DNA of 64,000 bases from Candidatus Paceibacter sp. (GTDB lineage: Bacteria; Patescibacteriota; Patescibacteriia; Magasanikbacterales; UBA922): contig DYFM01000002.1 in the NCBI GenBank assembly GCA_020725175.1, forward strand, positions 36,880-100,879. The letters are read 5' to 3'. Positions 16,164 to 56,900 of this stretch are shown in pieces. How positions within the stretch are numbered: position 1 is the first letter of the stretch; every line of letters starts with the position of its first letter. Position numbers and translations under genes: made by a program. The notes below the pieces were generated by a model. The model had not been told where the DNA came from. It made no database searches and saw only the letters and a list, made by a program, of their open reading frames with translations.

Positions 16164-16165
16164 GA

Positions 16166-16345
16166 TGTTACGGATTACGGATAATACGGAGATACGGATA
16201 ATTGTTTTGCAAAGTAAGCTGGTAGGTAGAATAGGTAGAGTAAGCTTATAAATTGTATCTAGCGTACTCTGCTTACTCTGCCTACTTGCATATTCTGCCC
16301 CAACACAATATCCGTAACTCCGTATTATCCGTAATCCGTAACATT
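16166..16345. repeat. palindromic oligo-repeat element (ACGGATA/TACGGAG arms, GTAAGC/GCAGAGTA core)
   Basis: GTTACGGATTACGGATAATACGGAG...CTCCGTATTATCCGTAATCCGTAAC inverted arms, with an internal GTAAGCTGGTAGGTAGAATAGGTAGAGTAAGC / GCTTACTCTGCCTACTTGC palindrome. Confidence 0.65.
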
Positions 16346-28697: not shown

Positions 28698-28881
28698 TAA
28701 AGAATAAAATTAAGGCTAAGATTAAGATTGAGAATGAGAATGAGAATGGGAATAGGTGATGGTTGGCCTGATGGGGAAAATAGAACGTATAGATATCATT
28801 ATACTTCTGTTGATAATTGATTTGAAACATGATAGCATAACTGTACCATATTCTTTATCTTAATTCTTTAACCTAAATTCT

Positions 28882-29932: not shown

Positions 29933-30562
29933 GTGTTACCACAATATTTTGACAATGAAGATGTGGTTTCAGTAAGCGCGCGTTATCCGCACGATTGTTC
30001 GTGGCACAGAGAAGCGTGTCGGAAGCCCGACTGTTATCAGTGCGGCAGGATAAAGCATGGAATGACAAGAAGACAAGAAGAAGAAGTGTATACGAAACAG
30101 AAACAGCAGGCTTTGGTAGAATTTTTACAGTCTATTGATACTGCCTTAAAACCACAATTCCCAAACCTCTCTTCAGTTGAACAAAAGAAGAAACAAAAGA
30201 CGAGAGATCTGCACCGAAGAATAATTGATTGGAGAAGGGGTGTGATAGAAACTGTGGCAATAGCAAGAGCACACGGTGCGATTTGGCTACAAAGTGAAGT
30301 GGGGAAAGATTTGGAATGGTACAGCAATGTTTTACCGGTCCATTCGTATGAGCTGGTAGTTCTCATTGAAAAAGATACGCAGAGTGATTCAGAAAAAAAC
30401 GCATATCACCGTACCGCCGTCATTGTTTTCGAGTCATTGCGTATACTCTCTCAGGCACTTGATGAGCTGATGAAATACAGAGAAACACGTGAGTTATTAT
30501 TACTTCCTCACTCCGAATTAAAGCACATTGAAGAAGTGTGTCATTCCGTTTTACAAAAATGA
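29933..30562 (+). CDS. hypothetical protein with a possible Cys/His zinc-binding N-terminus
   Basis: 'HDCSWHREACRKPDCYQCGR' cluster. Confidence 0.35.
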   Translation: MLPQYFDNEDVVSVSARYPHDCSWHREACRKPDCYQCGRIKHGMTRRQEEEVYTKQKQQALVEFLQSIDTALKPQFPNLSSVEQKKKQKTRDLHRRIIDWRRGVIETVAIARAHGAIWLQSEVGKDLEWYSNVLPVHSYELVVLIEKDTQSDSEKNAYHRTAVIVFESLRILSQALDELMKYRETRELLLLPHSELKHIEEVCHSVLQK

Positions 30563-31029
30563 TTATGAGTATTGAACAACAGGAAAAACAATTGACTAAT
30601 CTCAGAGAACGAGAACGATCTCGAGAAATACGCGAAACTAAAGAAGGAGAACCGAATCAAGAGTTAAAAGCCGCAGCCGCCATGGAACGGGCGGATTATT
30701 TGGTAAAAGAAGTCAAACAAAGTAAGCAGCAAATGCAAAATATTATTCTGCATATGCAACAAGTCATGGCAACGATTAAGCAATTGCTTGCCGAGTTACA
30801 GTTGACTGATGATGATCTGCCGCAATCAGTAGCTCAAGACCAGAAGCGAGTTGAGTTGCTACAAAAAAGAATTGCCACGTACCGGGAAGAATTGATTAAG
30901 ATGAAAGAGGATTTGATAAAAGAGTATATTGAAACCTTGAAAGTACAAGAACCAGGTTTGCCGCAAGAAGAATTGGAAGAGAAGGCACGGTTGGCGGTTG
31001 AGGGGATTATATTGGGTGTTGAGAAGTGA
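30538..31029 (+). CDS. hypothetical coiled-coil protein
   Basis: Charged, heptad-rich 163 aa ORF. Confidence 0.35.
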   Translation: MSFRFTKMIMSIEQQEKQLTNLRERERSREIRETKEGEPNQELKAAAAMERADYLVKEVKQSKQQMQNIILHMQQVMATIKQLLAELQLTDDDLPQSVAQDQKRVELLQKRIATYREELIKMKEDLIKEYIETLKVQEPGLPQEELEEKARLAVEGIILGVEK

Positions 31030-31030
31030 A

Positions 31031-31567
31031 ACTAAGATTAAGAATAAGATTAAGATTAAGATTAAGTACGTTTACTGTTTATTGCTAATTGTTTTATGTC
31101 GGAAGTATTGTTACTAGAACAGATGTCTGTGTATAAGTTGCAAACCAATCTTTCAGATGAACTTTGGGAGATCGTTTCAGTGTGGAATTACTTTGCAAAG
31201 GATACAATAGGAAAGCAATTAACGAGGGCTTTTGACTCAATTGGAGCGAACATTGCTGAGGGGTACGGTAGATTTAATTATGGAGAAAAAATAACGGTTT
31301 ATTTCTACGCGCGAGGGTCTGCTTATGAGAGCCAGTACTGGATTAAAAGAGCAAAAGAAAGAAGGCTCCTAGAAAATGAAAAAGCAAATATCTATTTATC
31401 TACCATCCAAAAAATTACTACTGAACTAAATCGTTTAATAAAAACATGTAAGGATAAAAGATAGAATGTTATAATGTATCTTAATCATAAACATCGTTAC
31501 TAAACTATGTATTCGTTCGATTTTCAACCTCAACCTCAACCTTAATCTTAATCTTAATCTTAATCTC
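31031..31567. mobile_element. hairpin cassette: inverted (TAAGAT)n hexamer arrays flanking a four-helix-bundle gene
   Basis: 31031-31067 AAGATTAAGAATAAGATTAAGATTAAGATTAAG and 31526-31567 CAACCTCAACCTCAACCTTAATCTTAATCTTAATCTTAATCT are reverse-complement arrays. Confidence 0.5.
31096..31464 (+). CDS. four-helix-bundle protein (family of 23S rRNA intervening-sequence proteins)
   Basis: 'NYFAKDTIGKQLTRAFDSIGANIAEGYGRF....ARGSAYESQYW' signature of that family. Confidence 0.7.
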   Translation: MSEVLLLEQMSVYKLQTNLSDELWEIVSVWNYFAKDTIGKQLTRAFDSIGANIAEGYGRFNYGEKITVYFYARGSAYESQYWIKRAKERRLLENEKANIYLSTIQKITTELNRLIKTCKDKR

Positions 31568-31569
31568 CT

Positions 31570-33357
31570 GTGTCTCGGTCATCAAAAGGATTTTCTCTGC
31601 TCGAGATCGTCGTTGCCATTGCAGTGCTGCTGATTTTTTTGGTTGGTTTATATTCGGGAATTCAGATGGTATTTAAAGTGGTATATCAGTCACGTATCCA
31701 GGTACTTGAAAATGGATTACTCAATGAACAGATAGAACTTATCAGAAATTTACCGTTTGAAGATATTGGTATTGTGAATGGGAGTCCGGCGGGGGTATTG
31801 GCACGCACAGTAACAACAACACGCAATGGCTTGGAATTTGAAATAACTCGGACGATTCGAAATATTGATGATCCGTTTGATGGTACAATTGGCGGAACTC
31901 CAAACGATACTGCACCGGCGGATTACAAGGCGGTATATGTTGAAGTGAGCTGTGCGGCTTGTCGACAAGAAAAGCCGGTAAGCGCAAGTACGTATGTGGC
32001 ACCCAAATACTTGGAGGGAGATCCGACACATGGAGCTTTGTTTATCCAAGTGTTTGACGCTTCAGCTCAGCCGGTATCAGGCGCGACCGTTCGTGTGGTG
32101 GCTACCACAACCGATCCACAAATTGATCTCGAGGACACCACGGATAACGAAGGAATGCTGCGTCTGGTTGATTTACCGGGCGGGCAAGAAGCGTACCACA
32201 TTACCGTCACAAAAGCTGGGTATACCACCGATCAAACATATATTGCAACGGAAAGCAATCCAAATCCGGTTCGGCCGCCAGCTACAGTTGTGGCGCAAGA
32301 TGTAACTGAAATAAGTTTTAGTATTGACGAAGCCTCAACGCTCTCGATAACGACGCAAAATTCTCTTTGTTCGGCGGTCGGGAGTGTGCCGATTGATATC
32401 ACAGGAACGCGGATAATTGGGACGGATCCGTCGGTGCCACTCACAGATATCTCTATTACAACCGGTGCAAATGGCACGTATTCACTACAATCTTATCCGT
32501 GGGATACCTATTCTCTTGAGACTACTTCATACGATATCAAAGGTGCTATCCCTGCGGTACCAATTGCTATATCGCCGGGAGTTAGTCAGCCAATTCAACT
32601 TATGGTTGGGGCAGATAGTGGCATTTCTTTATTAACTGTCGTGCGAGATGCGATCACGTCACAACCGGTCTCGAACGCCACAGTACACGTTACCTCTGTT
32701 GCCGGATATGACAAAACGATCGTGACAGATGTGGGAACTGTTCGTCAAACCGATTGGTCGGGCGGATCTGGTCAGGCAGAATTTACCAATGATATTCGGT
32801 ATTGGTCGGCAACTGGTGGAGTGGATACAATATCTTCGGCCGGAAATATTACCCTTTCTTCAGTCGGGGGAGGTACCTATAACTTAAGTGGTGAACTGGA
32901 GTCTTCTACGATTGATCTTGGGTTGGCAGCCAGTTATGTAAATTTGTTGTGGGAGCCATTGGCTCAACCATTGGAAACCGGGGAACAGTCAGTTCGTTTT
33001 CAACTTGCAAGTAGTGCCAGCAGTTCACCGGCTGCGTGGGATTTTGTTGGGCCGGATGGAACCGCTACAAGTTACTATTCCTCGACTAATACAGTTATTG
33101 GAAATCACCATGATGGAAATCAGTATGTTCGGTATAAACTATTTTTGGAAACCGCGTCTTCAACATATACTCCGTTGGTTTCTGATATAAATATTACATA
33201 TACCAACAGTTGTACGCCACCCGGACAAGCTTACTTTAGGGCACTAACTGCGGATGAATATACGGTATCTGTTACTGCGACAGGATATCAACCATATACA
33301 AGTACTGTTTCCGTGTCAGATGATACGATATTTACTATTCAAATGAGTACAGAGTAA
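31570..33357 (+). CDS. large prepilin-type N-terminal-domain protein (minor pilin / adhesin-like pseudopilin)
   Basis: Class III signal 'KG|FSLLEIVVAIAVLLI' followed by a 570-aa Ser/Thr-rich beta-domain region. Confidence 0.6.
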   Translation: MSRSSKGFSLLEIVVAIAVLLIFLVGLYSGIQMVFKVVYQSRIQVLENGLLNEQIELIRNLPFEDIGIVNGSPAGVLARTVTTTRNGLEFEITRTIRNIDDPFDGTIGGTPNDTAPADYKAVYVEVSCAACRQEKPVSASTYVAPKYLEGDPTHGALFIQVFDASAQPVSGATVRVVATTTDPQIDLEDTTDNEGMLRLVDLPGGQEAYHITVTKAGYTTDQTYIATESNPNPVRPPATVVAQDVTEISFSIDEASTLSITTQNSLCSAVGSVPIDITGTRIIGTDPSVPLTDISITTGANGTYSLQSYPWDTYSLETTSYDIKGAIPAVPIAISPGVSQPIQLMVGADSGISLLTVVRDAITSQPVSNATVHVTSVAGYDKTIVTDVGTVRQTDWSGGSGQAEFTNDIRYWSATGGVDTISSAGNITLSSVGGGTYNLSGELESSTIDLGLAASYVNLLWEPLAQPLETGEQSVRFQLASSASSSPAAWDFVGPDGTATSYYSSTNTVIGNHHDGNQYVRYKLFLETASSTYTPLVSDINITYTNSCTPPGQAYFRALTADEYTVSVTATGYQPYTSTVSVSDDTIFTIQMSTE

Positions 33358-33974: not shown

Positions 33975-33982
33975 TACTAAAA

Positions 33983-34065
33983 AATAGACCGCGGATTGAA
34001 CGGATAAAACGAATACAAACGGATCCGTCCAAATCCGTTCAATGCGTTTCATCTGCGGTCCATTA
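33983..34065. repeat. TAGACCGCGG..family palindromic element
   Basis: AATAGACCGCGGATTGAACGGATAAAACGAATACAAACGGATCCGTCCAAATCCGTTCAATGCG...CTGCGGTCCATT. Confidence 0.65.
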
Positions 34066-34135
34066 TTTATGAAAGCAAAATAATGTTCGAAATAAAAAAT
34101 TTCTTCGGCGGGGAAACTCATTCATTAAACTTCGT

Positions 34136-35635: not shown

Positions 35636-36508
35636 ATGTCAACTACAACCGTAAAAAAAGGAGTGATTATTGTCGCTGGTTTGGGGACACGCTTTTTACC
35701 AGCTACGAAAGCCATGCCAAAGGAAATGTTGCCCGTACTTGATAAACCGGTTGTACAGTACATTGTCGAAGAAATGGCTGAGAGTGGTATTACTGAAATT
35801 ATATTCGTGACCAGTTCGCAAAAACGTCCGATCGAAGATCATTTTGATCGGGATTATGATTTTGAACGTTTTTTGGAAGAAAATGGCAAGCTTGACAGAC
35901 TAAAACCATTGATTGAGCTTTCCGAAAAAGTACGTTTTTTCTATACGCGGCAAGCTAAGCCACTTGGAAATGGTCACGCACTACTCTGTGCGCGTCAATT
36001 TGTTGGTGACGAACCGTTTGCGTTTTCCGATGGGGATAGTATTATCGATGCCAAAGTTCCAGCTACCAAGCAATTGATTCGAGCATTTAAAAAACAAAAA
36101 TCATCCATTATCGGGGTACAGCGAATTGAAGATAAAGAAGCCATGATGAAGTATGGAAATGTCTATGCTCGCCCGACCGGTAAAGACAAGCGGTTGTTTC
36201 GGGTAGAAAAATTGGTTGAAAAGCCGAGTATCCAAAAAGTCTCTCCACACGGTTTGATTGTTGGTGGAATGCGTTACATTTTTACCAAAGAAATTTGGCC
36301 GCTTCTTGAAAAGCAAGGACAAGGCAAGGACAATGAAATCTGGGTAGCGGATGCGGCCAATGAACTGGCCAGAAAAAAGCCGTTTTTTGCGTATGAATAC
36401 GATGGTTTATATTTTGATACCGGAAACAAAATCGCTCTCTTGAAAGCCGCGCTTCATTTTGCGATGAAGGATGAGGGGGTGCGGGGGGAGTTGAGAGGAG
36501 TAATATGA
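35636..36508 (+). CDS. galU: UTP--glucose-1-phosphate uridylyltransferase
   Basis: 'KGVIIVAGLGTRFLPATKAMPKEMLPVLDKP' N-terminus and 290 aa length. Confidence 0.85.
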   Translation: MSTTTVKKGVIIVAGLGTRFLPATKAMPKEMLPVLDKPVVQYIVEEMAESGITEIIFVTSSQKRPIEDHFDRDYDFERFLEENGKLDRLKPLIELSEKVRFFYTRQAKPLGNGHALLCARQFVGDEPFAFSDGDSIIDAKVPATKQLIRAFKKQKSSIIGVQRIEDKEAMMKYGNVYARPTGKDKRLFRVEKLVEKPSIQKVSPHGLIVGGMRYIFTKEIWPLLEKQGQGKDNEIWVADAANELARKKPFFAYEYDGLYFDTGNKIALLKAALHFAMKDEGVRGELRGVI

Positions 36509-37620
36509 CATCTTTTTTAAAAATTAAAATAATAATAATAGTATTGCTTAGTATATTTTTTCTTTCTAGTGATACTGTTTTTACTATTCAAACATGTTGT
36601 GTTTACGATGATGGTAATGACATGGTGGGAGGGTATGTTGGTCAATCACCTTGTCAACAGGTGGGTGGTTTCTCTGTGGTGGAAACAGACGACTCTGATA
36701 TATGTAACGAGGCATTAAGTTATAATGGAAAGAACAAGAGTTTTATGCTTGAGTGGGCAAATACACTTGTAGATTATGTTAAAGAAAAAAAAATATATGA
36801 ACAAGCGGTAACTAGTATTGCGAACAATCACTGCTGTGTTCCTAAATATGCTTATAAAGATCAGTTGGGTTGTGCCCCCCCCAAAAAATTTGAGGATAAG
36901 CCAAAAAAAGATTTTTTTACCATGCTATGGACTGTCGCACAAAAAGAACCAACCGATCCAAATAATATCACAGTCACAGACAAAACACTGTTGAGTGATT
37001 TAAACATTTTCACTAATAAATCATATATAGATAACTCTGATCTTGTTTCATGTGATTCAGGTAGTTACGCGCTTTTTCCTATTAGCTGTGGAAGTAATTC
37101 ATATATTGATAAAAAAGCCATTGATCATCCGGCCGGAGAAGGACCTCTTCAAGTTCCTCTTCAGCAATATTGTCAAGCAATAAAAGAATTTTACTGTTCG
37201 TGTGCGGATGATTTTAGTGAATGTTCAAATACAAAGTTTACTAATATTGACATATGCCTAAAAAATCAAGTTGGAGGAGTCAATAAGAAATGTGTACCTG
37301 TAGACCAACAAACAACTTGTGAAAGTTTGGTTATCATAAAGTATGAGGGGGTTAAGTTTTCTTTACCTGATACAAAAAAATTAGATCATATAGGTATTAG
37401 TATTCAGGAGTTTATTGGTCGTGTTGTATATACTGCTATGGGTGTTGTAGGAAGTATTGCGCTGGTCATGATGATATATGGTGGGGCACTATGGATGACC
37501 GCTGCTGGTAATTCTGAGAAAGACGCAAGAGCATTGAAGATAATGTTTTGGGCGGGGCTAGGGGTAGTTATAATATTGAGTAGTTATGCAGTTGTTACAT
37601 TTGTTTTTAATGCATTGTAA
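36505..37620 (+). CDS. secreted Cys-rich protein with C-terminal TrbC/VirB2-like pilin domain (array member 1)
   Basis: Signal peptide, about 300 aa ectodomain with about 20 Cys, then 'IALVMMIYGGALWMTAAGNSEKDARALKIMFWAGLGVVIILSSYAV'. Confidence 0.65.
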   Translation: MTSFLKIKIIIIVLLSIFFLSSDTVFTIQTCCVYDDGNDMVGGYVGQSPCQQVGGFSVVETDDSDICNEALSYNGKNKSFMLEWANTLVDYVKEKKIYEQAVTSIANNHCCVPKYAYKDQLGCAPPKKFEDKPKKDFFTMLWTVAQKEPTDPNNITVTDKTLLSDLNIFTNKSYIDNSDLVSCDSGSYALFPISCGSNSYIDKKAIDHPAGEGPLQVPLQQYCQAIKEFYCSCADDFSECSNTKFTNIDICLKNQVGGVNKKCVPVDQQTTCESLVIIKYEGVKFSLPDTKKLDHIGISIQEFIGRVVYTAMGVVGSIALVMMIYGGALWMTAAGNSEKDARALKIMFWAGLGVVIILSSYAVVTFVFNAL

Positions 37621-37622
37621 GT

Positions 37623-38777
37623 ATGTCAGTAAGAAGACCAGGAGTAGATTTTGATGGTGAGTACATCGCAGCCACTTCTACAGGGCAATTTGCTCATAAT
37701 ATAGGCGAAAAAATTAAAAGAAAACTTGGAAAAGTAGCGGATTATGTGAGACCATCCGTTGATAGAATTCGCTCAGGTGGTTCTGATTTTTGGAAAAAAA
37801 CAGCAAGTGACGAATATAATCGTACTCCGGATAAGTGGACTGGTCAGCAATTATTTGAAATTTTTGAGAAAATATACCAAGAGATACCAAATGATGTTGG
37901 TCCAGAAAAAAAAACTGAGGAAGCTATTCTGGATTTTTATTCTTTTTTACTCCGTCAAGGTATAGACGAATTACCAAAAGATTTTGATAGGTATTTTGGT
38001 GATGGTATTGGAGAACATATAGACATGGAGTACCTTGACGAAGTGGATCCATATACAATTAAAAGAGGAGAAACAACAGAAGGCTATTTAAGAAGATTGT
38101 TTAGTTTCTGGCATTTAGAAGATGTCAATAATCTTCGTGTTGCATTCAACGGAAGCAAATTTTCTAATGATTCTCCTGCTAAAATTTTAGAAAGAGAAAT
38201 ACTTAAATCAGTTAAGGAGGAGGACTCAGAGCGTGTTTCACGCTTACTTCAGCTTGCTAGACCTACAGATCAAAAACATTATTTGGAACTAATTCATGAC
38301 CATGAGATAGCGCATCTTGCAAATGAGTATAGTGAATCGATTAAAGCTGGAAGTTCTGAGTATGATATTCCGGCAAGAAGAATGCTTGCAGCCTCAGCAA
38401 AAGGAAAAAAGATCTTGGAGAGTTTGGATAGGCAAAGGACATTAAAACTTTATGAAGAAATGAGAAAAAAACAGGAAGAGGATACGCTTGAATATATTAT
38501 AACCAGATTTATTCCTGCTTTAAATACAACTAAAAATATGGATGCTTTGCGTATGGCGTGGAATTTGTCTACATTCAAAGATGACACAAATAACATTGTG
38601 GATTCTGATGAAATGTTAAGGCGTGTGTTAGTTATGTATGCTGAGGATGGAGAGGTGGAAATTGTTTTGAGATTACTGTTAATTTCACAAGAAAGCGAAC
38701 TTAATAATAATACAACAATGGTTAAGAGAATATTAATGGAAAAACATCCGGAATTATATAATCAGATAGAGACATAA
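37623..38777 (+). CDS. hypothetical soluble protein
   Basis: 384 aa, no TM; 'HDHEIAHL' is a possible HExxH. Confidence 0.35.
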   Translation: MSVRRPGVDFDGEYIAATSTGQFAHNIGEKIKRKLGKVADYVRPSVDRIRSGGSDFWKKTASDEYNRTPDKWTGQQLFEIFEKIYQEIPNDVGPEKKTEEAILDFYSFLLRQGIDELPKDFDRYFGDGIGEHIDMEYLDEVDPYTIKRGETTEGYLRRLFSFWHLEDVNNLRVAFNGSKFSNDSPAKILEREILKSVKEEDSERVSRLLQLARPTDQKHYLELIHDHEIAHLANEYSESIKAGSSEYDIPARRMLAASAKGKKILESLDRQRTLKLYEEMRKKQEEDTLEYIITRFIPALNTTKNMDALRMAWNLSTFKDDTNNIVDSDEMLRRVLVMYAEDGEVEIVLRLLLISQESELNNNTTMVKRILMEKHPELYNQIET

Positions 38778-38787
38778 ATAATGACGT

Positions 38788-40161
38788 ATGTATAAAAACA
38801 TCATCGTACTAACCATCCTTTTTACTTCTGTTTTTCTCTTTGGTTTCGGTTGCAAAGGTCTTTCCAAAGAGCAACAGCAACTCATCAAACCAGTCACGCT
38901 CAATTACTGGACGGTATTTAATGATGTCAAAGAATTGCAGCGTATGGCCGATGAGTACAAACTTCGTCGTCCTTACGTTACTGTAAAGGTCCGACAAGTT
39001 CGCTATGAAGAATTTGATCAACTCTTTACCAATGCGCTCGCTGACGATGTGGGGCCGGATATTGTGTCTATGAATGTTCGTTGGATTGGCGAGCATGAGC
39101 AGCGCCTCATGCCAATGCCGGCGTCAGTCACTGTTGCCAATGTGCAAACCAAGGGAACCTATATCCAAGAAACACTCGTTACACCGGAAACAGTTGCCAT
39201 GCCAACACTTCGGGCCATTCAGGAAAAGTTTGTGAGTACAGTGGCGGAAGATATTGTTATTGGAAAAAACATGTATGGCCTACCATTGGCGCTTGATACC
39301 ATGGCTCTTTATTACAACAAAGATCTCCTCGATCAGGCCGGAGTGCCGGAAGCACCAAAAACCTGGAGCGACTTTCTTGATGCGGTAAAAAAGTCAACCA
39401 AGTTTGATGCCAGTGGAAACATTGTGCAGTCTGGAGTGGCAATGGGGACCGGGAATAATATCGATAATGCCGGTGATCTAGTCGCTTTACTTATGATGCA
39501 AAATGGACGAGATATGACCGAAGGAAAGAGTGTGATTTTTGCTTCCGGTATTGGAAACGCTGCTACAAACCATCCGGCTATGCAGGCGGCGAGTTTTTAT
39601 ACCAGTTTTGCTCGCCCTACATTAGAGTCTTATTCGTGGAATGAAACGCAGGAAAATGCTTTGACATCCTTTACGAGAGGAAAAAGTGTTTTCTACTTTG
39701 GATTTGCTTATGATTTACCACGTATCCAAGCTCAGGCTCCACAGATGAACCTGGAAATTGTTTCTGTCCCGCAGCTTCGTTCTGATGCGCCCAAAAATGT
39801 TGCCAACTACTGGATTGAATCAGTAGTCAAGAAATCGAAGAATCCAAATGAAGCATGGGATTTTATTCGCTTCATGGTAAGTTCACAAAATATTGCCGCG
39901 TATACCAAGGCAACAAATCGTCCTACACCACTGCGAGAACAAATTGCGGCTCAACGAGAAGATGTCCGATTAGCACCGTTTGTTGATAGTGTATTAGTAG
40001 CAAAAAATTGGTACCGTGGAAAAGATTATGAACCGGCAAACCAAGCAATTCGCTCTATGGTAGATAATCTGTTAAAACCAGTGCCGGAAAATCAGGATGA
40101 AGCAAGGGCACACGCCACCATAATCAATAACGCCGCACGAGTAGTGCAGCAGACGATGTAG
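38788..40161 (+). CDS. ABC-transporter substrate-binding lipoprotein (family 1 solute-binding protein), orphan
   Basis: Lipobox 'GFGCKG' and SBP_bac_1-like length and motifs; no permease or ATPase gene nearby. Confidence 0.55.
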   Translation: MYKNIIVLTILFTSVFLFGFGCKGLSKEQQQLIKPVTLNYWTVFNDVKELQRMADEYKLRRPYVTVKVRQVRYEEFDQLFTNALADDVGPDIVSMNVRWIGEHEQRLMPMPASVTVANVQTKGTYIQETLVTPETVAMPTLRAIQEKFVSTVAEDIVIGKNMYGLPLALDTMALYYNKDLLDQAGVPEAPKTWSDFLDAVKKSTKFDASGNIVQSGVAMGTGNNIDNAGDLVALLMMQNGRDMTEGKSVIFASGIGNAATNHPAMQAASFYTSFARPTLESYSWNETQENALTSFTRGKSVFYFGFAYDLPRIQAQAPQMNLEIVSVPQLRSDAPKNVANYWIESVVKKSKNPNEAWDFIRFMVSSQNIAAYTKATNRPTPLREQIAAQREDVRLAPFVDSVLVAKNWYRGKDYEPANQAIRSMVDNLLKPVPENQDEARAHATIINNAARVVQQTM

Positions 40162-40163
40162 GT

Positions 40164-41372
40164 ATGAAAAAATTTTTTTTCTTAATATTGTTTACTGTTT
40201 TTTCTTTTCTACCATTATATGTGGCAGATGTTCTGGCTGCAAAGTGTTCGTGTAACCTTCAGTTTTCTTCAAAAAGTTCGGATCCTAATATAGTACCTTG
40301 TACGTTGAATAAAACGAAAGAATTTCCATTGTGCTCATCAGTTAATTTGAGCGGTTTGGCGAACGACCTTGATACGTGTGAGGTTGGGAAAGTCATTTTT
40401 GGTGCCGAAGCTGAAATACTACCCTCTACAATTCAGGTAAACGATTCAGGTTGTGCGGCAATGAGTAAGTCAGGAGGTGATAAGATAAACATTCCGATAT
40501 ATGGAGAAATAAACTATACTTATGATTTTAAGTGTCAGGTGATTGGTCAGCCTGTTGATAATGAAAAAGTTTGTCCAGTCAAAGCACCATCAAATGTAAA
40601 CTGTCCTAAACTCACAGAATCCCTTAACTGCGACAAACCAGAAAATCTCCAAAAATGTCAAGACACTTGTAACAACCAAAGTGAAAATCAGTGCATCTGG
40701 AACACTGCCAATAATTCATGTGTAAAAAAAGTCTTAGGCGCTGGTGGTGTGAGTCAACAAGACGCTGCAAAAATGTATCAAGATAAATTTTATGGGAAAC
40801 CAGAAGGTTATAACGGCTTCCTCCCTGATTGTGCCTTCACTGGTGACTGCGATGATGTGAACGATTTACTACAACTCGCCATAGGAATTGGTGAATGGAT
40901 ATTCAAAATTTCCGGTTCAGTCGCTTTCCTGATGTTTGTCTATGGTGGATTTATGATGGTGCTTTCTACCGGGAACTCTGAGCGAGTGAAAAAGGGGAGA
41001 GATATACTGGCGGCCGCGGTAGTTGGTTTGATTATAATATTCGGTGCCTATATGATTGTGGGATTTGTTTTGAATACTCTTGGGGTAACGGAATTTTATG
41101 ACTTTCGAGCTGCGCCAACTGAAGGTGGGGGGAGTTCTGTCTCTGAAACAACAAAATCTACTCAAAACAAAGAAGAGGCTAATAAAGATGAAGAACAACA
41201 AGCAGGATTTTGCGTAACCATAAAGGGTGGTGCGGCAGCTTGCATCCCAATAAATGGAGCTAACTGTGGCGATTATATTGGAGAAGATTCTAAACCTGGT
41301 GGTAGTATTATAACGGAAAAACCAACATGTGATGCGTTGGCTAACGAATTAAACACTCCCGCTTCACCATGA
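40164..41372 (+). CDS. TrbC/VirB2-like pilin-domain protein with N-terminal Cys-rich domain and C-terminal extension (member 2)
   Basis: 'SVAFLMFVYGGFMMVLSTGNSERVKKGRDILAAAVVGLIIIFGAYMIV'. Confidence 0.65.
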   Translation: MKKFFFLILFTVFSFLPLYVADVLAAKCSCNLQFSSKSSDPNIVPCTLNKTKEFPLCSSVNLSGLANDLDTCEVGKVIFGAEAEILPSTIQVNDSGCAAMSKSGGDKINIPIYGEINYTYDFKCQVIGQPVDNEKVCPVKAPSNVNCPKLTESLNCDKPENLQKCQDTCNNQSENQCIWNTANNSCVKKVLGAGGVSQQDAAKMYQDKFYGKPEGYNGFLPDCAFTGDCDDVNDLLQLAIGIGEWIFKISGSVAFLMFVYGGFMMVLSTGNSERVKKGRDILAAAVVGLIIIFGAYMIVGFVLNTLGVTEFYDFRAAPTEGGGSSVSETTKSTQNKEEANKDEEQQAGFCVTIKGGAAACIPINGANCGDYIGEDSKPGGSIITEKPTCDALANELNTPASP

Positions 41373-41971
41373 GAGTAACTATAAATATGATTAAATCTAA
41401 AGTCAAAGGTTTTTTCTTAATCAACATTTTTACACTGGGATGGTTGTTTTTCCCAACTGGCTTAGTATTATCATCTAACGGTGAGAAGTGCTTTTGTCTT
41501 GATATTAGTACTGATAAATTTGAAGAGGTTACTACAATTGCTTCTCAAGAAAATTGTACAGATGTTGAGGCGGAAAAAGTAAAGCCTACATATAGTCTTT
41601 GTACGTGGGAGTTACCAGAAAAACCAGTTCCTGAAAAAACGACAAGTGAAGTGTCAGCTGATAAAAGCAAAAATTCAACTAATGGAGGTGGTGAATGTGG
41701 CATCGACAAAGTCTGCCTCACCAACCCTCTCAAAGACGGCACAGACATCCCGACCCTTATTGGAAATATTATCAAGCGTGTGTTAGGAATTCTCGGTTCA
41801 ATCACCTTAGCAGTATTTGTTTACGGAGGATTCCTCTGGCTCACGAGTGCGGGTAATGCAGAAAAAGTCAAGAAAGGAACCGAAACAATGGCCTGGGCAG
41901 CAATTGGGGTCTTTATCATTTTTAGCGCGTATGCTATACTAAGTACGATTATAAAAGGGATTACTGGATGA
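41369..41971 (+). CDS. TrbC/VirB2-like pilin-domain protein (member 3)
   Basis: 'ITLAVFVYGGFLWLTSAGNAEKVKKGTETMAWAAIGVFIIFSAYAIL'; ATGA start/stop overlap with member 2. Confidence 0.65.
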   Translation: MRVTINMIKSKVKGFFLINIFTLGWLFFPTGLVLSSNGEKCFCLDISTDKFEEVTTIASQENCTDVEAEKVKPTYSLCTWELPEKPVPEKTTSEVSADKSKNSTNGGGECGIDKVCLTNPLKDGTDIPTLIGNIIKRVLGILGSITLAVFVYGGFLWLTSAGNAEKVKKGTETMAWAAIGVFIIFSAYAILSTIIKGITG

Positions 41972-41980
41972 TAATTGGAT

Positions 41981-42723
41981 GTGCGAACTTACGAACAGTA
42001 AGTACGAACATACGAACTACGAACAATTGAATCCGCCCACGGCCCCAGGCGTGCACAGCAAGGCGGACGAGGGTTTTATTCTCTCCCGATTTGATCGAGA
42101 AAAACTACCTATAGCGATACCCTGTCAGCTTCCACCCCGGGCGGACACGTGCTGCGGGGACATTCGTTTGTAAACTGCGAAGAGTTAGGTCTAATAAGTT
42201 TAAAAATATGCGCGGAGGGCAGACAATTGTACGAAATGATAAAATTTTGTATCCGGAACTAAGTTATCAAATAAATGGAGTTTTAATGGATGTGGCGAAG
42301 ACGCTTGGTGGCGGTCATAAGGAAAATTATTACGGAAATGCTTGTGCTGTAGGATTTACGAAAAGACAGATATCATTTCAAAGAGAAGTGTATGTGCCAC
42401 TCACATATGAAGATGAAAAAGTAGGAAAATATTTTGTGGATTTTCTCATCGAAAATAAAATAATCCTGGAGCTAAAACGTGGTCAATTTATATCAAGTTC
42501 AGTAATAGAACAGACAAAACAGTACTTGGTTGCAAAAAATCTAAAATTGGGAATAATTGGCTGTTTTACTTACAATGGGGTAGTTATCAAAAGAGTAGTA
42601 AACGAGTATTAAATATGTACGAACAATACGAATGATAAGTACGAACATACGAACTGCGAACAAAGCAACTTTTCTCGCCAGTTCGTAGTTCGTATGTTCG
42701 TACTTACAGTTCGTACGTTCGGA
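41981..42723. mobile_element. hairpin cassette: inverted (TACGAAC)n arrays flanking a GxxExxY gene
   Basis: 41981-42028 GTGCGAACTTACGAACAGTAAGTACGAACATACGAACTACGAAC versus 42617-42723 GTACGAACAATACGAA..GTACGAACATACGAACTGCGAAC...GTTCGTAGTTCGTATGTTCGTACTTACAGTTCGTACGTTCG. Confidence 0.5.
42208..42612 (+). CDS. GxxExxY family protein (PD-(D/E)xK-like; family known from 23S rRNA intervening sequences)
   Basis: 'TLGGGHKENYYGNACAVGFTK.....KYFVDFLIENKIILELKRGQ.....QYLVAKNLKLGIIGCF' fits the GxxExxY pattern. Confidence 0.55.
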   Translation: MRGGQTIVRNDKILYPELSYQINGVLMDVAKTLGGGHKENYYGNACAVGFTKRQISFQREVYVPLTYEDEKVGKYFVDFLIENKIILELKRGQFISSSVIEQTKQYLVAKNLKLGIIGCFTYNGVVIKRVVNEY

Positions 42724-42788
42724 CATTAACAAATAACCAGAACCACAAATATGAGTAATGATCTTCCATCGAAAGGAGGTGAGAGAAC

Positions 42789-43223
42789 ATGAGTAAAATG
42801 TATATGTTGGCGGCAAAGTACAAAGCTTTTTTTGCGGTGTTTTTTGCGCTCGGAATGGCATTTGTCCTTTCACCGGTAGCTTTTGCACAAACAAATGAGT
42901 ATTTGTCTACCGAATGTGGAGCTAATGATCCTTTTTGTATCGAGGGTGCAAGAGTAGAAAAGCTTGGCGATGAACCATTATTAGATACTATTACTAGTAT
43001 TATCAACGTTGCGTTGAGTCTATTGGGTATCGTTGCGGTGGTAATTATCTTGATTGGTGGTTTCAAATGGATGACAGCTGGTGGTAGTGAAGATAAGGTG
43101 GCCGATGCGAGAAAGTTAATTTTCTCTGGTATTATCGGTATTGCTATCATTTTGTCGGCGTGGGCAATTGCAAATTTTGTTTTGAGTGCCTTGGTAGATG
43201 CTACAGGTGCAGGTGTAGAATAA
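42789..43223 (+). CDS. TrbC/VirB2-like pilin-domain protein (member 4)
   Basis: 'IVAVVIILIGGFKWMTAGGSEDKVADARKLIFSGIIGIAIILSAWAIANFV'. Confidence 0.7.
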   Translation: MSKMYMLAAKYKAFFAVFFALGMAFVLSPVAFAQTNEYLSTECGANDPFCIEGARVEKLGDEPLLDTITSIINVALSLLGIVAVVIILIGGFKWMTAGGSEDKVADARKLIFSGIIGIAIILSAWAIANFVLSALVDATGAGVE

Positions 43224-43753: not shown

Positions 43754-43836
43754 AAGCAGAGTAGGCAGAGTAAGCAGAGTAGGCTTTTGCATTATTGAGC
43801 TTAATATGCGTAATCTGCTTACTCTGCCTACTCTGC
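43754..43836. repeat. palindromic GCAGAGTA-repeat element
   Basis: GCAGAGTAGGCAGAGTAAGCAGAGTAGGC ... GCTTACTCTGCCTACTCTGC. Confidence 0.6.
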
Positions 43837-45733: not shown

Positions 45734-45760
45734 TCATGTTTCGTAAAGTGTTAGAAACGA

Positions 45761-45843
45761 AATAGACAGTGGATAAAACGAATCAAACGAATAAAAACGG
45801 ATCCGTTATCATCTGTTCCATCCGTCCAATCCGCGGTCCATTT
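45761..45843. repeat. TAGAC...CCGCGGTCCAT-family palindromic element
   Basis: AATAGACAGTGGATAAAACGAATCAAACGAATAAAAACGGATCCGTT...CCGTCCAATCCGCGGTCCATTT. Confidence 0.6.
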
Positions 45844-48643: not shown

Positions 48644-48736
48644 AAACGAAATAGCGAAATATCGAAATAAGGAAATAGATCAAGTGTGGTGGAGCTATTT
48701 CAATATTTCGATATTTCGCTATTTCTTTATTTCGGT
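48644..48736. repeat. palindromic ACGAAATA/ATTTCG oligo-repeat element
   Basis: AACGAAATAGCGAAATATCGAAATAAGGAAATAG ... CTATTTCAATATTTCGATATTTCGCTATTTC. Confidence 0.6.
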
Positions 48737-56378: not shown

Positions 56379-56572
56379 GGTACGGATACTTTACTGATTA
56401 CGGATAATACGGAGTTACTGATACTTTACGGATTACGGATAGTACGGAGTTACGGATATTTGTGTTGCGGATTAGGTTGATAAGCAGAGTAAGCAGATTA
56501 AGCTAATAAAACACCAGGGCCTATTCCGCTTCTATCAAAAATCCGTACCTCCGTATTATCCGTAATCAGTAA
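56379..56572. repeat. palindromic ACGGATA/TACGGAG + GCAGAGTAAGCAGAT element (same family as 16166-16345)
   Basis: GGTACGGATACTTTACTGATTACGGATAATACGGAG... ...CTCCGTATTATCCGTAATCAG. Confidence 0.65.
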
Positions 56573-56590
56573 GGTATAGCTATTGACGTA

Positions 56591-56900
56591 ACTACCGTAA
56601 TTTCTTATACCTCTTTAAATCCTCCGGGCTATGTTTATGAAGTCCTAAATAGATTTCGATAAATTCTACCAGTGACGCAAGTCCAAGCCCGGCCATGGCG
56701 ATGGCGAAGATGGGTTCATTTTTATAGAGGGCAAAGATAAAGAGACAGGCGGCGCCGATGAATTTTACCAGATCTTGCCGACGTTCTTACTCGACAAATA
56801 CTCCGTACGTAAGAAGAACTCCACCAAGGACGGCGAGAATATAGAGAATAGTGATGAGGGTAGATTCGGGAAGGAAGGGGAGGAGGTTTTCGAGTAACAT
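56591..56900 (-). pseudogene. small membrane protein paralog interrupted by an in-frame TAA
   Basis: 'MLLENLLPFLPESTLITILYILAVLGGVLLTYGVFVE*ERRQDLVKFIGAACLFIFALYKNEPIFAIAMAGLGLASLVEFIEIY..' aligns across the stop with 56979-57212 ('..IFIKQETKQDWFFVFGGLF..'). Confidence 0.45.

What the first reader, a model, noticed from the sequence alone, without database searches (positions are those of the whole stretch)
31031..31567. Four-helix-bundle (rRNA-IVS-type) gene sitting in the loop of a giant hairpin formed by inverted (TAAGAT)n arrays
The gene 31096-31464 belongs to the family originally found inside 23S rRNA intervening sequences. Here it lies in an intergenic position. It is bracketed by reverse-complementary hexamer-repeat arrays (31031-31067 and 31526-31567) that would form a stem about 35 bp long enclosing the ORF. 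This mimics the stem-loop architecture of an rRNA IVS outside rRNA. A related TAAGATTAAGATTGAGAATGAGAAT array also occurs at 28705-28745 after rpsF. Together these suggest a mobile mini-cassette.
Basis: seen in the sequence. Interest (0 to 1): 0.7.

Follow-up and report, generated by a model that had tools for sequence, protein, structure and literature searches.

The report
IVS-type hairpin gene cassette outside rRNA
A small four-helix-bundle gene, of the kind first found inside 23S rRNA intervening sequences, sits here between two protein genes together with its own inverted hexamer-repeat arms, and homologues in several bacterial phyla carry equivalent arms, so gene plus arms behave as one relocatable unit.

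Summary
ORF 31096-31464 is a PF05635/TIGR02436 four-helix-bundle (4HB) protein. It is bracketed by (TAAGAT)n at 31028-31066 and (ATCTTA)n at 31541-31567. The core is 26 nt at 96% complementarity, far beyond chance (score 23; shuffles max 13).

The arms belong to the gene, not to the site. Four homologues at 61-65% identity lie in unrelated contexts, and all carry TAAGAT/ATCTTA arms. A relative with the same flanking genes (L009) has only a 12-nt spacer there.

In 80 loci of this 4HB subfamily from at least five phyla, 81% have inverted tandem-repeat arms, against 7% of neighbouring genes. Arm periods are 7, 8 or 6 nt, and the units share an ATT[AG]G core.

The window's only GxxExxY (PF13366) gene, 42208-42612, has the same layout with TACGAAC arms. 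Its three distinct relative loci do too.

The published Coxiella 23S IVS has the same anatomy and is cut in the stem by RNase III.

Best reading: an IVS-type cassette lodged in an operon and transcribed with it. Its arms pair into an RNase III-type stem; that step is inferred, not shown. How it moves and what the protein does remain unknown. I found no paper describing this general link.

The parts
31028..31066 (+). 5' arm: (TAAGAT)n array of about 5.7 units. It starts on the TGA stop codon of the upstream gene (31027-31029).
31096..31464 (+). Four-helix-bundle protein gene (122 aa; PF05635 / TIGR02436). The family motif R44-x3-S48-x3-N52-x2-E55 is intact.
31478..31490 (+). Vestigial inner 3' arm fragment (ATCTTAATCATAA) just after the stop codon. 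Close homologues have their 3' arm at this position.
   Evidence: (I14)
31524..31542 (+). (TCAACC)3 variant units of the 3' array. All three units carry the same two T>C changes. They pair with the left arm only as G.U on the antisense strand.
31541..31567 (+). 3' arm: (CTTAAT)n array of about 4.3 units, the reverse complement of the 5' arm. It ends 2 nt before the GTG start of the downstream gene.
30559..31029 (+). Upstream host gene (156 aa, no family). Its homologue in L009 lies 12 nt from the pilin-like gene, with no cassette between them.
31570..33357 (+). Downstream host gene: a 595-aa protein with a prepilin N-terminal methylation motif, first gene of a conserved pilin-like operon.
28698..28753 (+). 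TAAGAT/GAGAAT-type array in the rpsF-ssb spacer: left half of a weak ORF-less hairpin of the same unit type.
28849..28881 (+). Degenerate reverse-complement partner (TATTCTTTATCTTAATTCTTT...) of the rpsF-ssb array.
41979..42024 (+). Second cassette, outer 5' arm A (TACGAAC-type units). It is 93% complementary over 46 nt to arm B.
42208..42612 (+). Second cassette, passenger gene: GxxExxY protein (TIGR04256 / PF13366, PD-(D/E)XK_3).
42614..42661 (+). Second cassette, internal copy A' of the 5' arm. It forms a short-loop hairpin with B (89% over 35 nt).
42681..42726 (+). Second cassette, 3' arm B.

Best explanation
Window 31028-31567 is one discrete genetic unit of about 540 bp. It consists of a four-helix-bundle (4HB) gene plus its own terminal inverted arrays of TAAGAT hexamers. 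It has the same kind of anatomy as the ORF-bearing intervening sequences of 23S rRNA, but it is lodged between two protein-coding genes of an operon rather than in an rRNA helix.

Shown here:
- The ORF and the arms travel together and are conserved together.
- The unit fills the whole spacer, from the upstream stop codon to 2 nt before the downstream start.
- A relative has the same two flanking genes 12 nt apart, with no unit between them.
- No promoter-like or terminator-like site lies inside the unit.
- Genes of this subfamily usually follow a co-oriented gene.

Inferred:
- The unit is transcribed by read-through from the host operon.
- In the transcript the arms pair into a stem of about 25-32 bp that loops out the 4HB message.
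- This stem is a substrate for RNase III, as shown experimentally for rRNA IVSs. Cleavage would separate the cassette RNA from the flanking cistrons and make the insertion tolerable in mRNA as in rRNA.
- The unit reached this site by insertion. The enzyme responsible is unknown.

The conserved ATT[AG]G core and the fixed polarity of the repeat units point to sequence-specific recognition of the arms, over and above base pairing. The travelling 4HB pentamer is the obvious candidate.
For: - Arms are complementary far beyond chance.
- The family assignment is secure.
- Homologues P0007, P0009, P0004 and P0010 are 61-65% identical to the window protein. Three sit next to the Citrate_synt ORF of an ATP-citrate-lyase-type operon and one sits upstream of prfA. 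All carry TAAGAT / ATCTTA arms, and the stop codon usually lies inside the 3' arm.
- In the three citrate-lyase lineages the 4HB proteins are 68-72% identical, while the flanking proteins are 53-58% (Citrate_synt) and 73-80% (Ligase_CoA) identical. ORF and arms have therefore been maintained over long divergence.
- Empty site: in L009 the two flanking genes are 12 nt apart. None of the relatives' loci (L003-L009) contains a 4HB gene; L007 holds no sequence upstream of the pilin-like gene and is uninformative for the site.
- In 80 subfamily loci, 81% have flanking inverted arms with score >=12. The figure is 7% for other genes and 2.9% for other small genes in the same loci.
- The arms are tandem arrays: period 7 in 42 loci, 8 in 18, 6 in 5 and 9 in 1; periodicity 0.69 against 0.38 in controls.
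- Polarity is fixed: the 5' arm has G>C in 65 of 66 loci.
- ATT[AG]G occurs in 47 of 66 5' arms and is enriched 19-42 fold. Its complement occurs in 4 of 66.
- The unit type tracks the protein subclade within a phylum: 69.9% against 59.9% mean identity.
- The upstream neighbour is co-oriented in 71 of 78 loci, against a 74% baseline.
- No promoter-like or terminator-like site lies inside the cassette.
- The Coxiella IVS has the S23p ORF in the loop, a 28-bp terminal stem, tandem GACAGAT heptamers and RNase III cuts in mid-stem (PMC4990558).
- The GxxExxY gene in the window and four further homologue loci (three close relatives and the more distant L061 copy) have the same layout with their own unit type.
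- Of 12 strong inverted-repeat pairs in the window, only two have loops longer than 120 nt. Those two enclose the window's only PF05635 and PF13366 genes.
Against: - No RNA data exist. RNase III cleavage is extrapolated from rRNA IVSs.
- Arm mismatches show no bias towards sense-strand G.U (79 G.U against 86 A.C). Selection at the RNA level is therefore not demonstrated.
- In this window the stem is stronger on the antisense strand (-47.4 against -30.6 kcal/mol).
- The whole-region sense fold is no more stable than shuffles (z -0.76).
- In close homologues the stop codon lies inside the 3' arm. Cleavage in the stem would truncate the message, which sits awkwardly with a protein that is clearly under purifying selection.
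- The only empty site comes from a distant relative (43-51% amino-acid identity). It cannot define the insertion boundaries or a target-site duplication.
- All six contigs that carry the exact upstream protein also carry the cassette, so no presence/absence polymorphism was seen.
- The 81% figure applies to one subfamily, selected by two peptide motifs. It does not describe all of PF05635.
Confidence: 0.6

Rival explanations
1. The arms are protein-binding arrays. The ring-shaped 4HB pentamer binds the tandem ATT[AG]G-type units of its own arms, as RNA or single-stranded DNA, one unit per subunit. Binding competes with hairpin formation and so autoregulates translation or processing, or marks the ends of the element. 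This may act together with the hairpin model rather than instead of it.
For: - The sequence of the units is conserved, not merely their complementarity: TAAGAT across five contexts at 61-72% protein identity.
- The ATT[AG]G core and fixed polarity hold across phyla.
- The unit type co-varies with the protein subclade.
- Structural relatives 2GSC and 2RLD are pentamers, and the Avd pentamer sits in an RNA-protein complex (8UB7).
- Typical arms hold 3-6 units.
Against: - GxxExxY cassettes carry an unrelated fold yet have the same arm architecture. The architecture therefore does not need a 4HB protein.
- No binding data exist.
- The number of units is variable and shows no peak at five.
Confidence: 0.25
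2. The element works at the DNA level. The arms are terminal inverted repeats or hairpin-forming ends of a transposon-like or homing element. It is mobilised by an enzyme encoded elsewhere or, for GxxExxY, by its own PD-(D/E)XK nuclease. The ORF-less hairpins would be non-autonomous copies or landing pads into which cassettes are copied by recombination through the arms.
For: - Same-unit ORF-less arrays lie in neighbouring spacers, both here (28698-28881) and in Chloroflexota and cyanobacterial loci.
- ACGGAT-type ORF-less hairpins in the window match the arms of a GxxExxY gene in L061.
- Arm duplications of the form A-gene-A'-B recur.
- Mismatch types show no wobble bias at the RNA level.
- An independent assembly breaks exactly at the outer end of the 3' arm.
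- GxxExxY belongs to a nuclease superfamily.
Against: - No transposase, integrase or reverse transcriptase lies in the cassette or within 10 kb either side.
- No target-site duplication is visible.
- No recent identical copies occur within the window.
- No relatives were found on viral contigs.
- 4HB proteins have no known catalytic activity.
Confidence: 0.2
3. The two arrays are ordinary intergenic elements of the host, such as terminator or stabiliser hairpins or slippage-prone simple repeats. On this reading they merely happen to lie on either side of an unrelated small gene.
For: - The window is full of intergenic hairpins made of short tandem units.
- Simple repeats expand by slippage; the three identical variant units at 31524-31542 are an example.
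Against: - The same unit sequence accompanies the same ORF subfamily in unrelated contexts.
- 81% of subfamily loci have arms against 7% of neighbouring genes.
- No U-tract terminator is present.
- The relative L009 has neither the arrays nor the gene at this site.
Confidence: 0.03
4. The gene is the accessory protein (Avd) of a diversity-generating retroelement.
For: The fold resembles Avd (4DWL and 8UB7, TM about 0.78). PF05635 and bAvd are related families (weak bAvd hit on a 4HB gene in L097/L098).
Against: - No reverse transcriptase occurs among the genes called within 10 kb on either side.
- The neighbours are a 156-aa protein of no family and a pilin-like gene.
- Sequence identity to Avd is 7-10%.
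- The Pfam match is to PF05635, not to bAvd.
Confidence: 0.01

Closest known systems
ORF-bearing intervening sequences (IVS) of 23S rRNA (Coxiella burnetii helix 45; Leptospira; also 16S/23S insertions in CPR bacteria)
   Same: - The passenger protein is of the same family (S23p = PF05635).
- The ORF lies in the loop of a long stem formed by terminal inverted repeats.
- The stem region contains short tandem repeats: GACAGAT heptamers in Coxiella, with copy number varying among strains.
- The element has no promoter of its own and relies on host transcription.
- The literature has long suspected a mobile or selfish nature (PMC4990558; 10.1101/2024.02.27.582315).
   Different: - The element is not in rRNA. 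It lies between two protein-coding genes, abutting their stop and start codons.
- The unit is a hexamer (TAAGAT).
- RNase III excision has not been shown here.
- The protein looks functional: the motif is intact, and orthologous copies are as conserved as housekeeping neighbours. The Coxiella ORF, by contrast, is reported as decaying and probably untranslated.
Avd, the accessory protein of diversity-generating retroelements
   Same: Four-helix-bundle fold. Both belong to related families whose solved members form pentamers. Avd binds nucleic acid within a ribonucleoprotein complex.
   Different: No reverse transcriptase and no template/variable repeats are nearby. Sequence identity is below 10%. 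Avd genes are not described as flanked by inverted tandem arrays; I did not test this.
Miniature inverted-repeat elements transcribed into mRNAs (for example Neisseria Correia elements, REP/BIME). Named from my own knowledge, not tested here.
   Same: They are intergenic, have terminal inverted repeats that form hairpins in transcripts, and occur in many copies. Correia hairpins are RNase III targets. The ORF-less hairpins in this window look like this class.
   Different: Here the arms are tandem arrays of 6-8-nt units rather than unique TIR sequences. A conserved protein gene sits in the loop. No target-site duplication and no cognate transposase were identified.
Cyanobacterial STRR heptamer repeats (Mazel et al. 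1990; unit sequences recalled from memory)
   Same: Both are tandem heptamers in intergenic regions of heterocystous cyanobacteria, with function unknown. The arms of 4HB genes in Nostoc and Aulosira loci are (TTGGTCA)n, i.e. GTCATTG arrays (L072, L081, L095). As I recall it, this matches STRR2.
   Different: In the literature I could search, STRRs are described as repeats without any link to a gene family. The window's own unit is a hexamer, and the organism is not a cyanobacterium.

Membership tests
PF05635 / TIGR02436 four-helix-bundle (23S rRNA IVS protein, 'S23p') family | Profile match above the curated threshold | tested here: met
   PF05635 at 76.7 bits against a cut-off of 33.8, E 1.9e-21. 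TIGR02436 at 78.4 bits against a cut-off of 24.
PF05635 / TIGR02436 four-helix-bundle (23S rRNA IVS protein, 'S23p') family | Up-down four-helix-bundle fold like Xcc0516 (2GSC) and BT_0352 (2RLD) | tested here: met
   The AF2 model has pLDDT 95.8 and four helices. TM-score to 2GSC is 0.85 at rmsd 1.3 A.
PF05635 / TIGR02436 four-helix-bundle (23S rRNA IVS protein, 'S23p') family | Conserved R-x3-S-x3-N-x2-E motif (the motif is quoted in PMC3936711) | tested here: met
   R44, S48, N52 and E55 are invariant in alignment A1 and present in the window protein.
PF05635 / TIGR02436 four-helix-bundle (23S rRNA IVS protein, 'S23p') family | Homopentameric ring | not testable with these tools
   Only a monomer was modelled.
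rRNA intervening sequence (IVS) element | Inserted in a helix of 23S (or 16S) rRNA | tested here: not met
   No rRNA was detected in the window. The flanks are protein-coding genes.
rRNA intervening sequence (IVS) element | Terminal inverted repeats forming a long stem that encloses the ORF | tested here: met
rRNA intervening sequence (IVS) element | Excision from the transcript by RNase III | not testable with these tools
   This needs RNA end-mapping. The stem of 25-32 bp is long enough for a typical RNase III substrate (my own knowledge).
Diversity-generating retroelement (Avd) | Adjacent reverse transcriptase and template/variable repeat pair | tested here: not met
   No RT domain occurs among the genes called within 10 kb on either side.
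Transposon / MITE | Terminal inverted repeats | tested here: met
Transposon / MITE | Target-site duplication and a cognate transposase | tested here: inconclusive
   No direct repeat is evident at the outer arm ends. No transposase lies in or near the unit. The empty site in L009 is too diverged to define the junctions.
Intrinsic terminator | Short GC-rich stem followed by a U-tract | tested here: not met
   No such site lies within 31028-31567.

The most novel reading that the evidence does not exclude
Four-helix-bundle and GxxExxY genes, together with their inverted tandem-repeat arms, form a widespread and so far unrecognised class of hairpin-borne mobile cassettes. Under this reading:
- rRNA intervening sequences are just the copies that landed in rRNA.
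- Many enigmatic intergenic heptamer arrays, including cyanobacterial STRRs and the ORF-less tandem-unit hairpins of this CPR genome, are their ORF-less derivatives or landing pads.
- The passenger proteins act on their own arms: a pentameric 4HB ring reads ATT[AG]G units, and a small PD-(D/E)XK nuclease cuts hairpin or cruciform arms. These activities would drive spread or control processing.
Probability: 0.25. Interest if true: 0.85.

Novelty: new variant of a known kind. Interest (0 to 1): 0.68.

Why it matters
Three old puzzles may share one answer:
- Where ORF-bearing rRNA intervening sequences come from.
- What the very abundant "four helix bundle" and "GxxExxY" hypothetical proteins are.
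- What the short tandem heptamer arrays of cyanobacteria and other phyla are for.

If gene plus arms is a self-contained cassette that sits harmlessly inside operons because its arms fold it out of the transcript, two consequences follow.
- Reported associations of these genes with cas, ATP-citrate-lyase or pilus operons are insertions, not functional partnerships.
- The arms give a concrete, testable ligand for a protein family that has had solved structures since 2006 but no known function.

For annotation, the arms also explain the odd QSQS-type C-terminal tails and the assembly breaks next to these genes.

Tried and rejected
- Rfam gathering scan of the window and a permissive scan of 41900-42800: only tRNAs, plus spurious miRNA-hairpin hits on the A'-B hairpin.
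- Folding the GC-rich 42025-42207 stretch on both strands: no signal. No copy occurs elsewhere.
- tblastn for further 4HB or GxxExxY copies in the window: none.
- Search for a cassette-free allele through contigs carrying the exact upstream protein: all six contigs that carry it also carry the cassette. A first attempt with the wrong start codon found nothing.
- G.U against A.C mismatch bias as a test of RNA-level selection: no bias, so inconclusive.
- Viral contig scans with both protein alignments: no relatives.
- PADLOC and PHROGs on both proteins: no hits.
- Weak Pfam hits that might link 4HB to HEPN-like RNases: none.
- Cluster names to place the ATP-citrate-lyase and prfA contigs taxonomically: no names on record.
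- Literature searches for a published link between these gene families and flanking tandem arrays: none found in the open-access library. Subscription literature was not searchable.
- The rpsF-ssb arrays as a strong hairpin: the fold is no better than shuffles (z -0.22). I keep them only as a weak ORF-less relative.

Full report
**What is at the site**

- The upstream gene (30559-31029) ends in TGA. Right on that stop codon starts an array of TAAGAT hexamers, 31028-31066 (TRF: 5.7 copies at 31033-31066).
- After 29 nt comes ORF 31096-31464.
- The spacer ends in (TCAACC)3 at 31524-31542 followed by (CTTAAT)4.3 at 31541-31566.
- This last array stops 2 nt before the GTG start of a 595-aa gene with a prepilin N-terminal motif.

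The two arrays are reverse complements:
- 39 nt at 82% complementarity.
- 32 nt at 91%.
- 26 nt at 96%.
- 20 nt at 100%.

A simple flank-to-flank score is 23. Five hundred shuffles reach at most 13, and 391 displaced pseudo-genes in the same window reach at most 12.

As RNA, the sense arms form a 25-bp duplex of -30.6 kcal/mol. A shuffled right arm gives a mean of -6.9. In a 601-nt fold the arms pair with probability 0.76. The stem is present in the MFE and centroid structures of both strands.

One correction is needed. The (AACCTC)3 units face the left arm as A.C on the sense strand and as G.U only on the antisense strand. The sense stem is therefore about 25-32 bp, not 35, and the antisense stem is stronger (-47.4 kcal/mol).

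An independent Logan assembly is identical over 10.5 kb, so this is not an assembly artefact. That contig ends exactly at the outer end of the 3' arm.

**The gene**

- PF05635 at 76.7 bits (cut-off 33.8) and TIGR02436 at 78.4 bits.
- The AF2 model (pLDDT 95.8) is a four-helix bundle. Its closest matches are Xcc0516 (2GSC, TM 0.85) and BT_0352 (2RLD), then the DGR protein Avd.
- The family's invariant polar residues are intact.
- No reverse transcriptase is called within 10 kb on either side, so this is not a DGR Avd.

**The arms belong to the gene, not to the site**

The closest homologues in the 5.8-billion-protein collection are 61-65% identical to the window protein. They lie in unrelated contexts.
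- Three lie immediately upstream of the Citrate_synt ORF of an ATP-citrate-lyase-type operon (L010, L013, L015). In L010 and L013 the Ligase_CoA ORF is the immediate upstream neighbour.
- One lies upstream of prfA (L016).

Every one has TAAGAT-type units upstream and ATCTTA units downstream. In all four the ORF runs into the 3' arm, so the stop codon is part of the array. The QSQS/KSES C-terminal tails are translated repeat.

In the three citrate-lyase lineages the 4HB proteins are 68-72% identical. Their neighbours are 53-58% (Citrate_synt) and 73-80% (Ligase_CoA) identical. The insertion is therefore old there, and both ORF and arm sequence have been kept.

The converse also holds. The one relative that retains both flanking genes of the window (L009; 43% and 51% identity) has them 12 nt apart, with neither arrays nor gene between them. 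None of the six relatives of the pilin operon that include sequence upstream of the pilin-like gene has a 4HB gene there; L007 holds no upstream sequence.

**It is a general rule for this subfamily**

A scan of GTDB species genomes with the subfamily alignment returned 80 loci. They come from Chloroflexota, Bacteroidota, Cyanobacteria, Acidobacteriota and NC10 and are 39-52% identical to the query.
- 81% have a flanking inverted match scoring >=12. The figure is 7% for other genes and 2.9% for other small genes in the same loci.
- The few positive "other genes" are mostly host genes lying between a 4HB cassette and another array of the same unit; one is itself a GxxExxY gene (L061).
- The arms are tandem arrays: period 7 in 42 loci, 8 in 18, 6 in 5 and 9 in 1. 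Periodicity is 0.69 against 0.38 in controls.
- Polarity is fixed: G>C in the 5' arm in 65 of 66 loci.
- ATT[AG]G occurs in 47 of 66 5' arms and is enriched 19-42 fold. Its complement occurs in 4 of 66.
- Within a phylum, proteins with the same unit class are more alike (69.9% against 59.9% identity).
- The upstream neighbour is co-oriented in 71 of 78 loci, against a 74% baseline.
- In the window no promoter-like or terminator-like site lies inside the unit.

The sample was selected by two peptide motifs. The 81% therefore describes this subfamily, not all of PF05635.

**A second passenger family**

The window's only PF13366/TIGR04256 (GxxExxY, PD-(D/E)XK) gene, 42208-42612, lies between arm A (41979-42024) and arm B (42681-42726). 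These arms are 93% complementary over 46 nt and are built of TACGAAC units. An internal copy A' lies at 42614-42661.

Its relatives at 54-67% identity sit in other CPR contexts: between der and pth, between two epimerase genes, and next to a PfkB kinase gene. All carry TACGAA(A/C) arms, and the A-gene-A'-B layout recurs in L101.

A more distant copy in an Anaerolinea MAG has ACGGAT arms. That is the unit of the commonest ORF-less hairpins in this window.

Of the 12 strong inverted-repeat pairs in the 64 kb, only two have loops longer than 120 nt. Those two enclose exactly these two genes.

**Comparison with what is known**

The Coxiella 23S IVS is described as follows (PMC4990558):
- It is a 428-nt element with the S23p (4HB) ORF in the loop.
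- It has a 28-bp stem made of terminal inverted repeats.
- It has tandem GACAGAT heptamers before the start codon, and their number varies among strains.
- RNase III cuts it in mid-stem.

CPR rRNA insertions also carry 23S_rRNA_IVP ORFs.

The window element therefore has the anatomy of an IVS but fails the defining feature of lying in rRNA.

A 2013 survey reported these genes inside cas operons, for example between cmr3 and cmr2, and read that as a functional association (PMC3936711). The present data suggest promiscuous insertion between co-directional genes instead.

In the open-access library I found no paper linking non-rRNA 4HB or GxxExxY genes to flanking tandem-repeat arms. Subscription literature could not be searched, so prior description cannot be excluded.

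From memory, the GTCATTG / TTGGTCA arms of Nostocales loci match the cyanobacterial STRR2 repeat.

**How it most likely works**

Shown:
- The unit is discrete and co-inherited.
- It fills the spacer between two co-directional genes.

Inferred:
- It is transcribed by read-through from the host operon.
- Its arms pair into a stem that an RNase III-type enzyme would be expected to cut, as happens in rRNA IVSs.
- It got here by insertion.

Weak points:
- There are no RNA data.
- Arm mismatches show no wobble bias (79 G.U against 86 A.C).
- The antisense stem is the stronger one here.
- In relatives a stem cut would remove the stop codon of a protein that is clearly under selection.

The conserved unit core argues for sequence-specific recognition as well as pairing. 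The travelling protein is the obvious candidate. However, the same architecture around an unrelated nuclease-fold protein means the arms may instead be a shared vehicle. DNA-level mobility, with the ORF-less hairpins as derivatives or landing pads, remains open.

**Verdict**

- The instance itself is a new variant of a known kind: an IVS-type cassette outside rRNA.
- The cross-phylum regularity uncovered while checking it is the more interesting result and deserves a proper census and a few simple biochemical tests.

Noticed in passing
window 778-860, 7907-8012, 16165-16344, 33978-34069, 43756-43836, 45760-45843, 48645-48728, 56386-56601, 57262-57358, 58335-58398, 59094-59175, 63424-63505: Intergenic spacers of this genome are packed with ORF-less hairpins whose arms are degenerate tandem units of 7-9 nt (ACGGATn, CGAAATA, GCAGAGTA, AAATCAT). 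They usually start within a few bases of a gene end. One family shares AATAGACCGCGGAT termini. ACGGAT units are also the arms of a GxxExxY gene in L061.
   Followed up: partly
window 42025-42207: A 183-nt GC-rich stretch lies between arm A and the GxxExxY ORF, unlike the 41% GC surroundings. It has no Rfam match, no folding signal on either strand and no copy in any fetched locus. The overlapping 64-aa ORF matches no family.
   Followed up: partly
window 31567 (end of Logan contig SRR5011273_31292 = L002): An independent assembly of the same organism is 100% identical but terminates exactly at the outer end of the 3' arm. This hints at a repeat-induced break or a population variant at that junction.
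   Followed up: no
L010:3001-3384, L013:3001-3363, L015:3001-3372: The TAAGAT-armed 4HB cassette sits immediately upstream of the Citrate_synt-domain ORF of an ATP-citrate-lyase / citryl-CoA-type operon in three diverged metagenomic lineages. The upstream stop codon (TAA or TGA) is supplied by the first repeat unit in L010 and L013.
   Followed up: partly
alignment A1, C-termini (for example P0003, P0004, P0015): Many 4HB proteins end in QSQS, KSES or KSQSKS tails. These are simply the 3' arm (CAATCT / AAATCT units) read in frame up to a TAA inside the array.
   Followed up: yes
L098:854-1207 and 2501-2911; L101:903-1283 and 2501-2911: In other CPR contigs a 4HB cassette and a GxxExxY cassette lie about 1.2-1.3 kb apart, separated by one to four host genes. 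Each has its own unit type: GTAGGA or AAAGATTT for the 4HB gene, TACGAA for GxxExxY.
   Followed up: partly
L035:990-2405, L069:2890-4881, L075:1185-2453, L094:3094-4260 and others: Host genes next to 4HB cassettes in Chloroflexota and Cyanobacteria are themselves bounded on the far side by arrays of the same unit. Same-unit ORF-less copies therefore populate neighbouring spacers.
   Followed up: no
window 35636-43223: A run of genes with T4SS_pilin (PF18895) domains lies next to the pilin-like operon, typical of CPR/Patescibacteria surface-appendage loci. The GxxExxY cassette sits between two of them.
   Followed up: no
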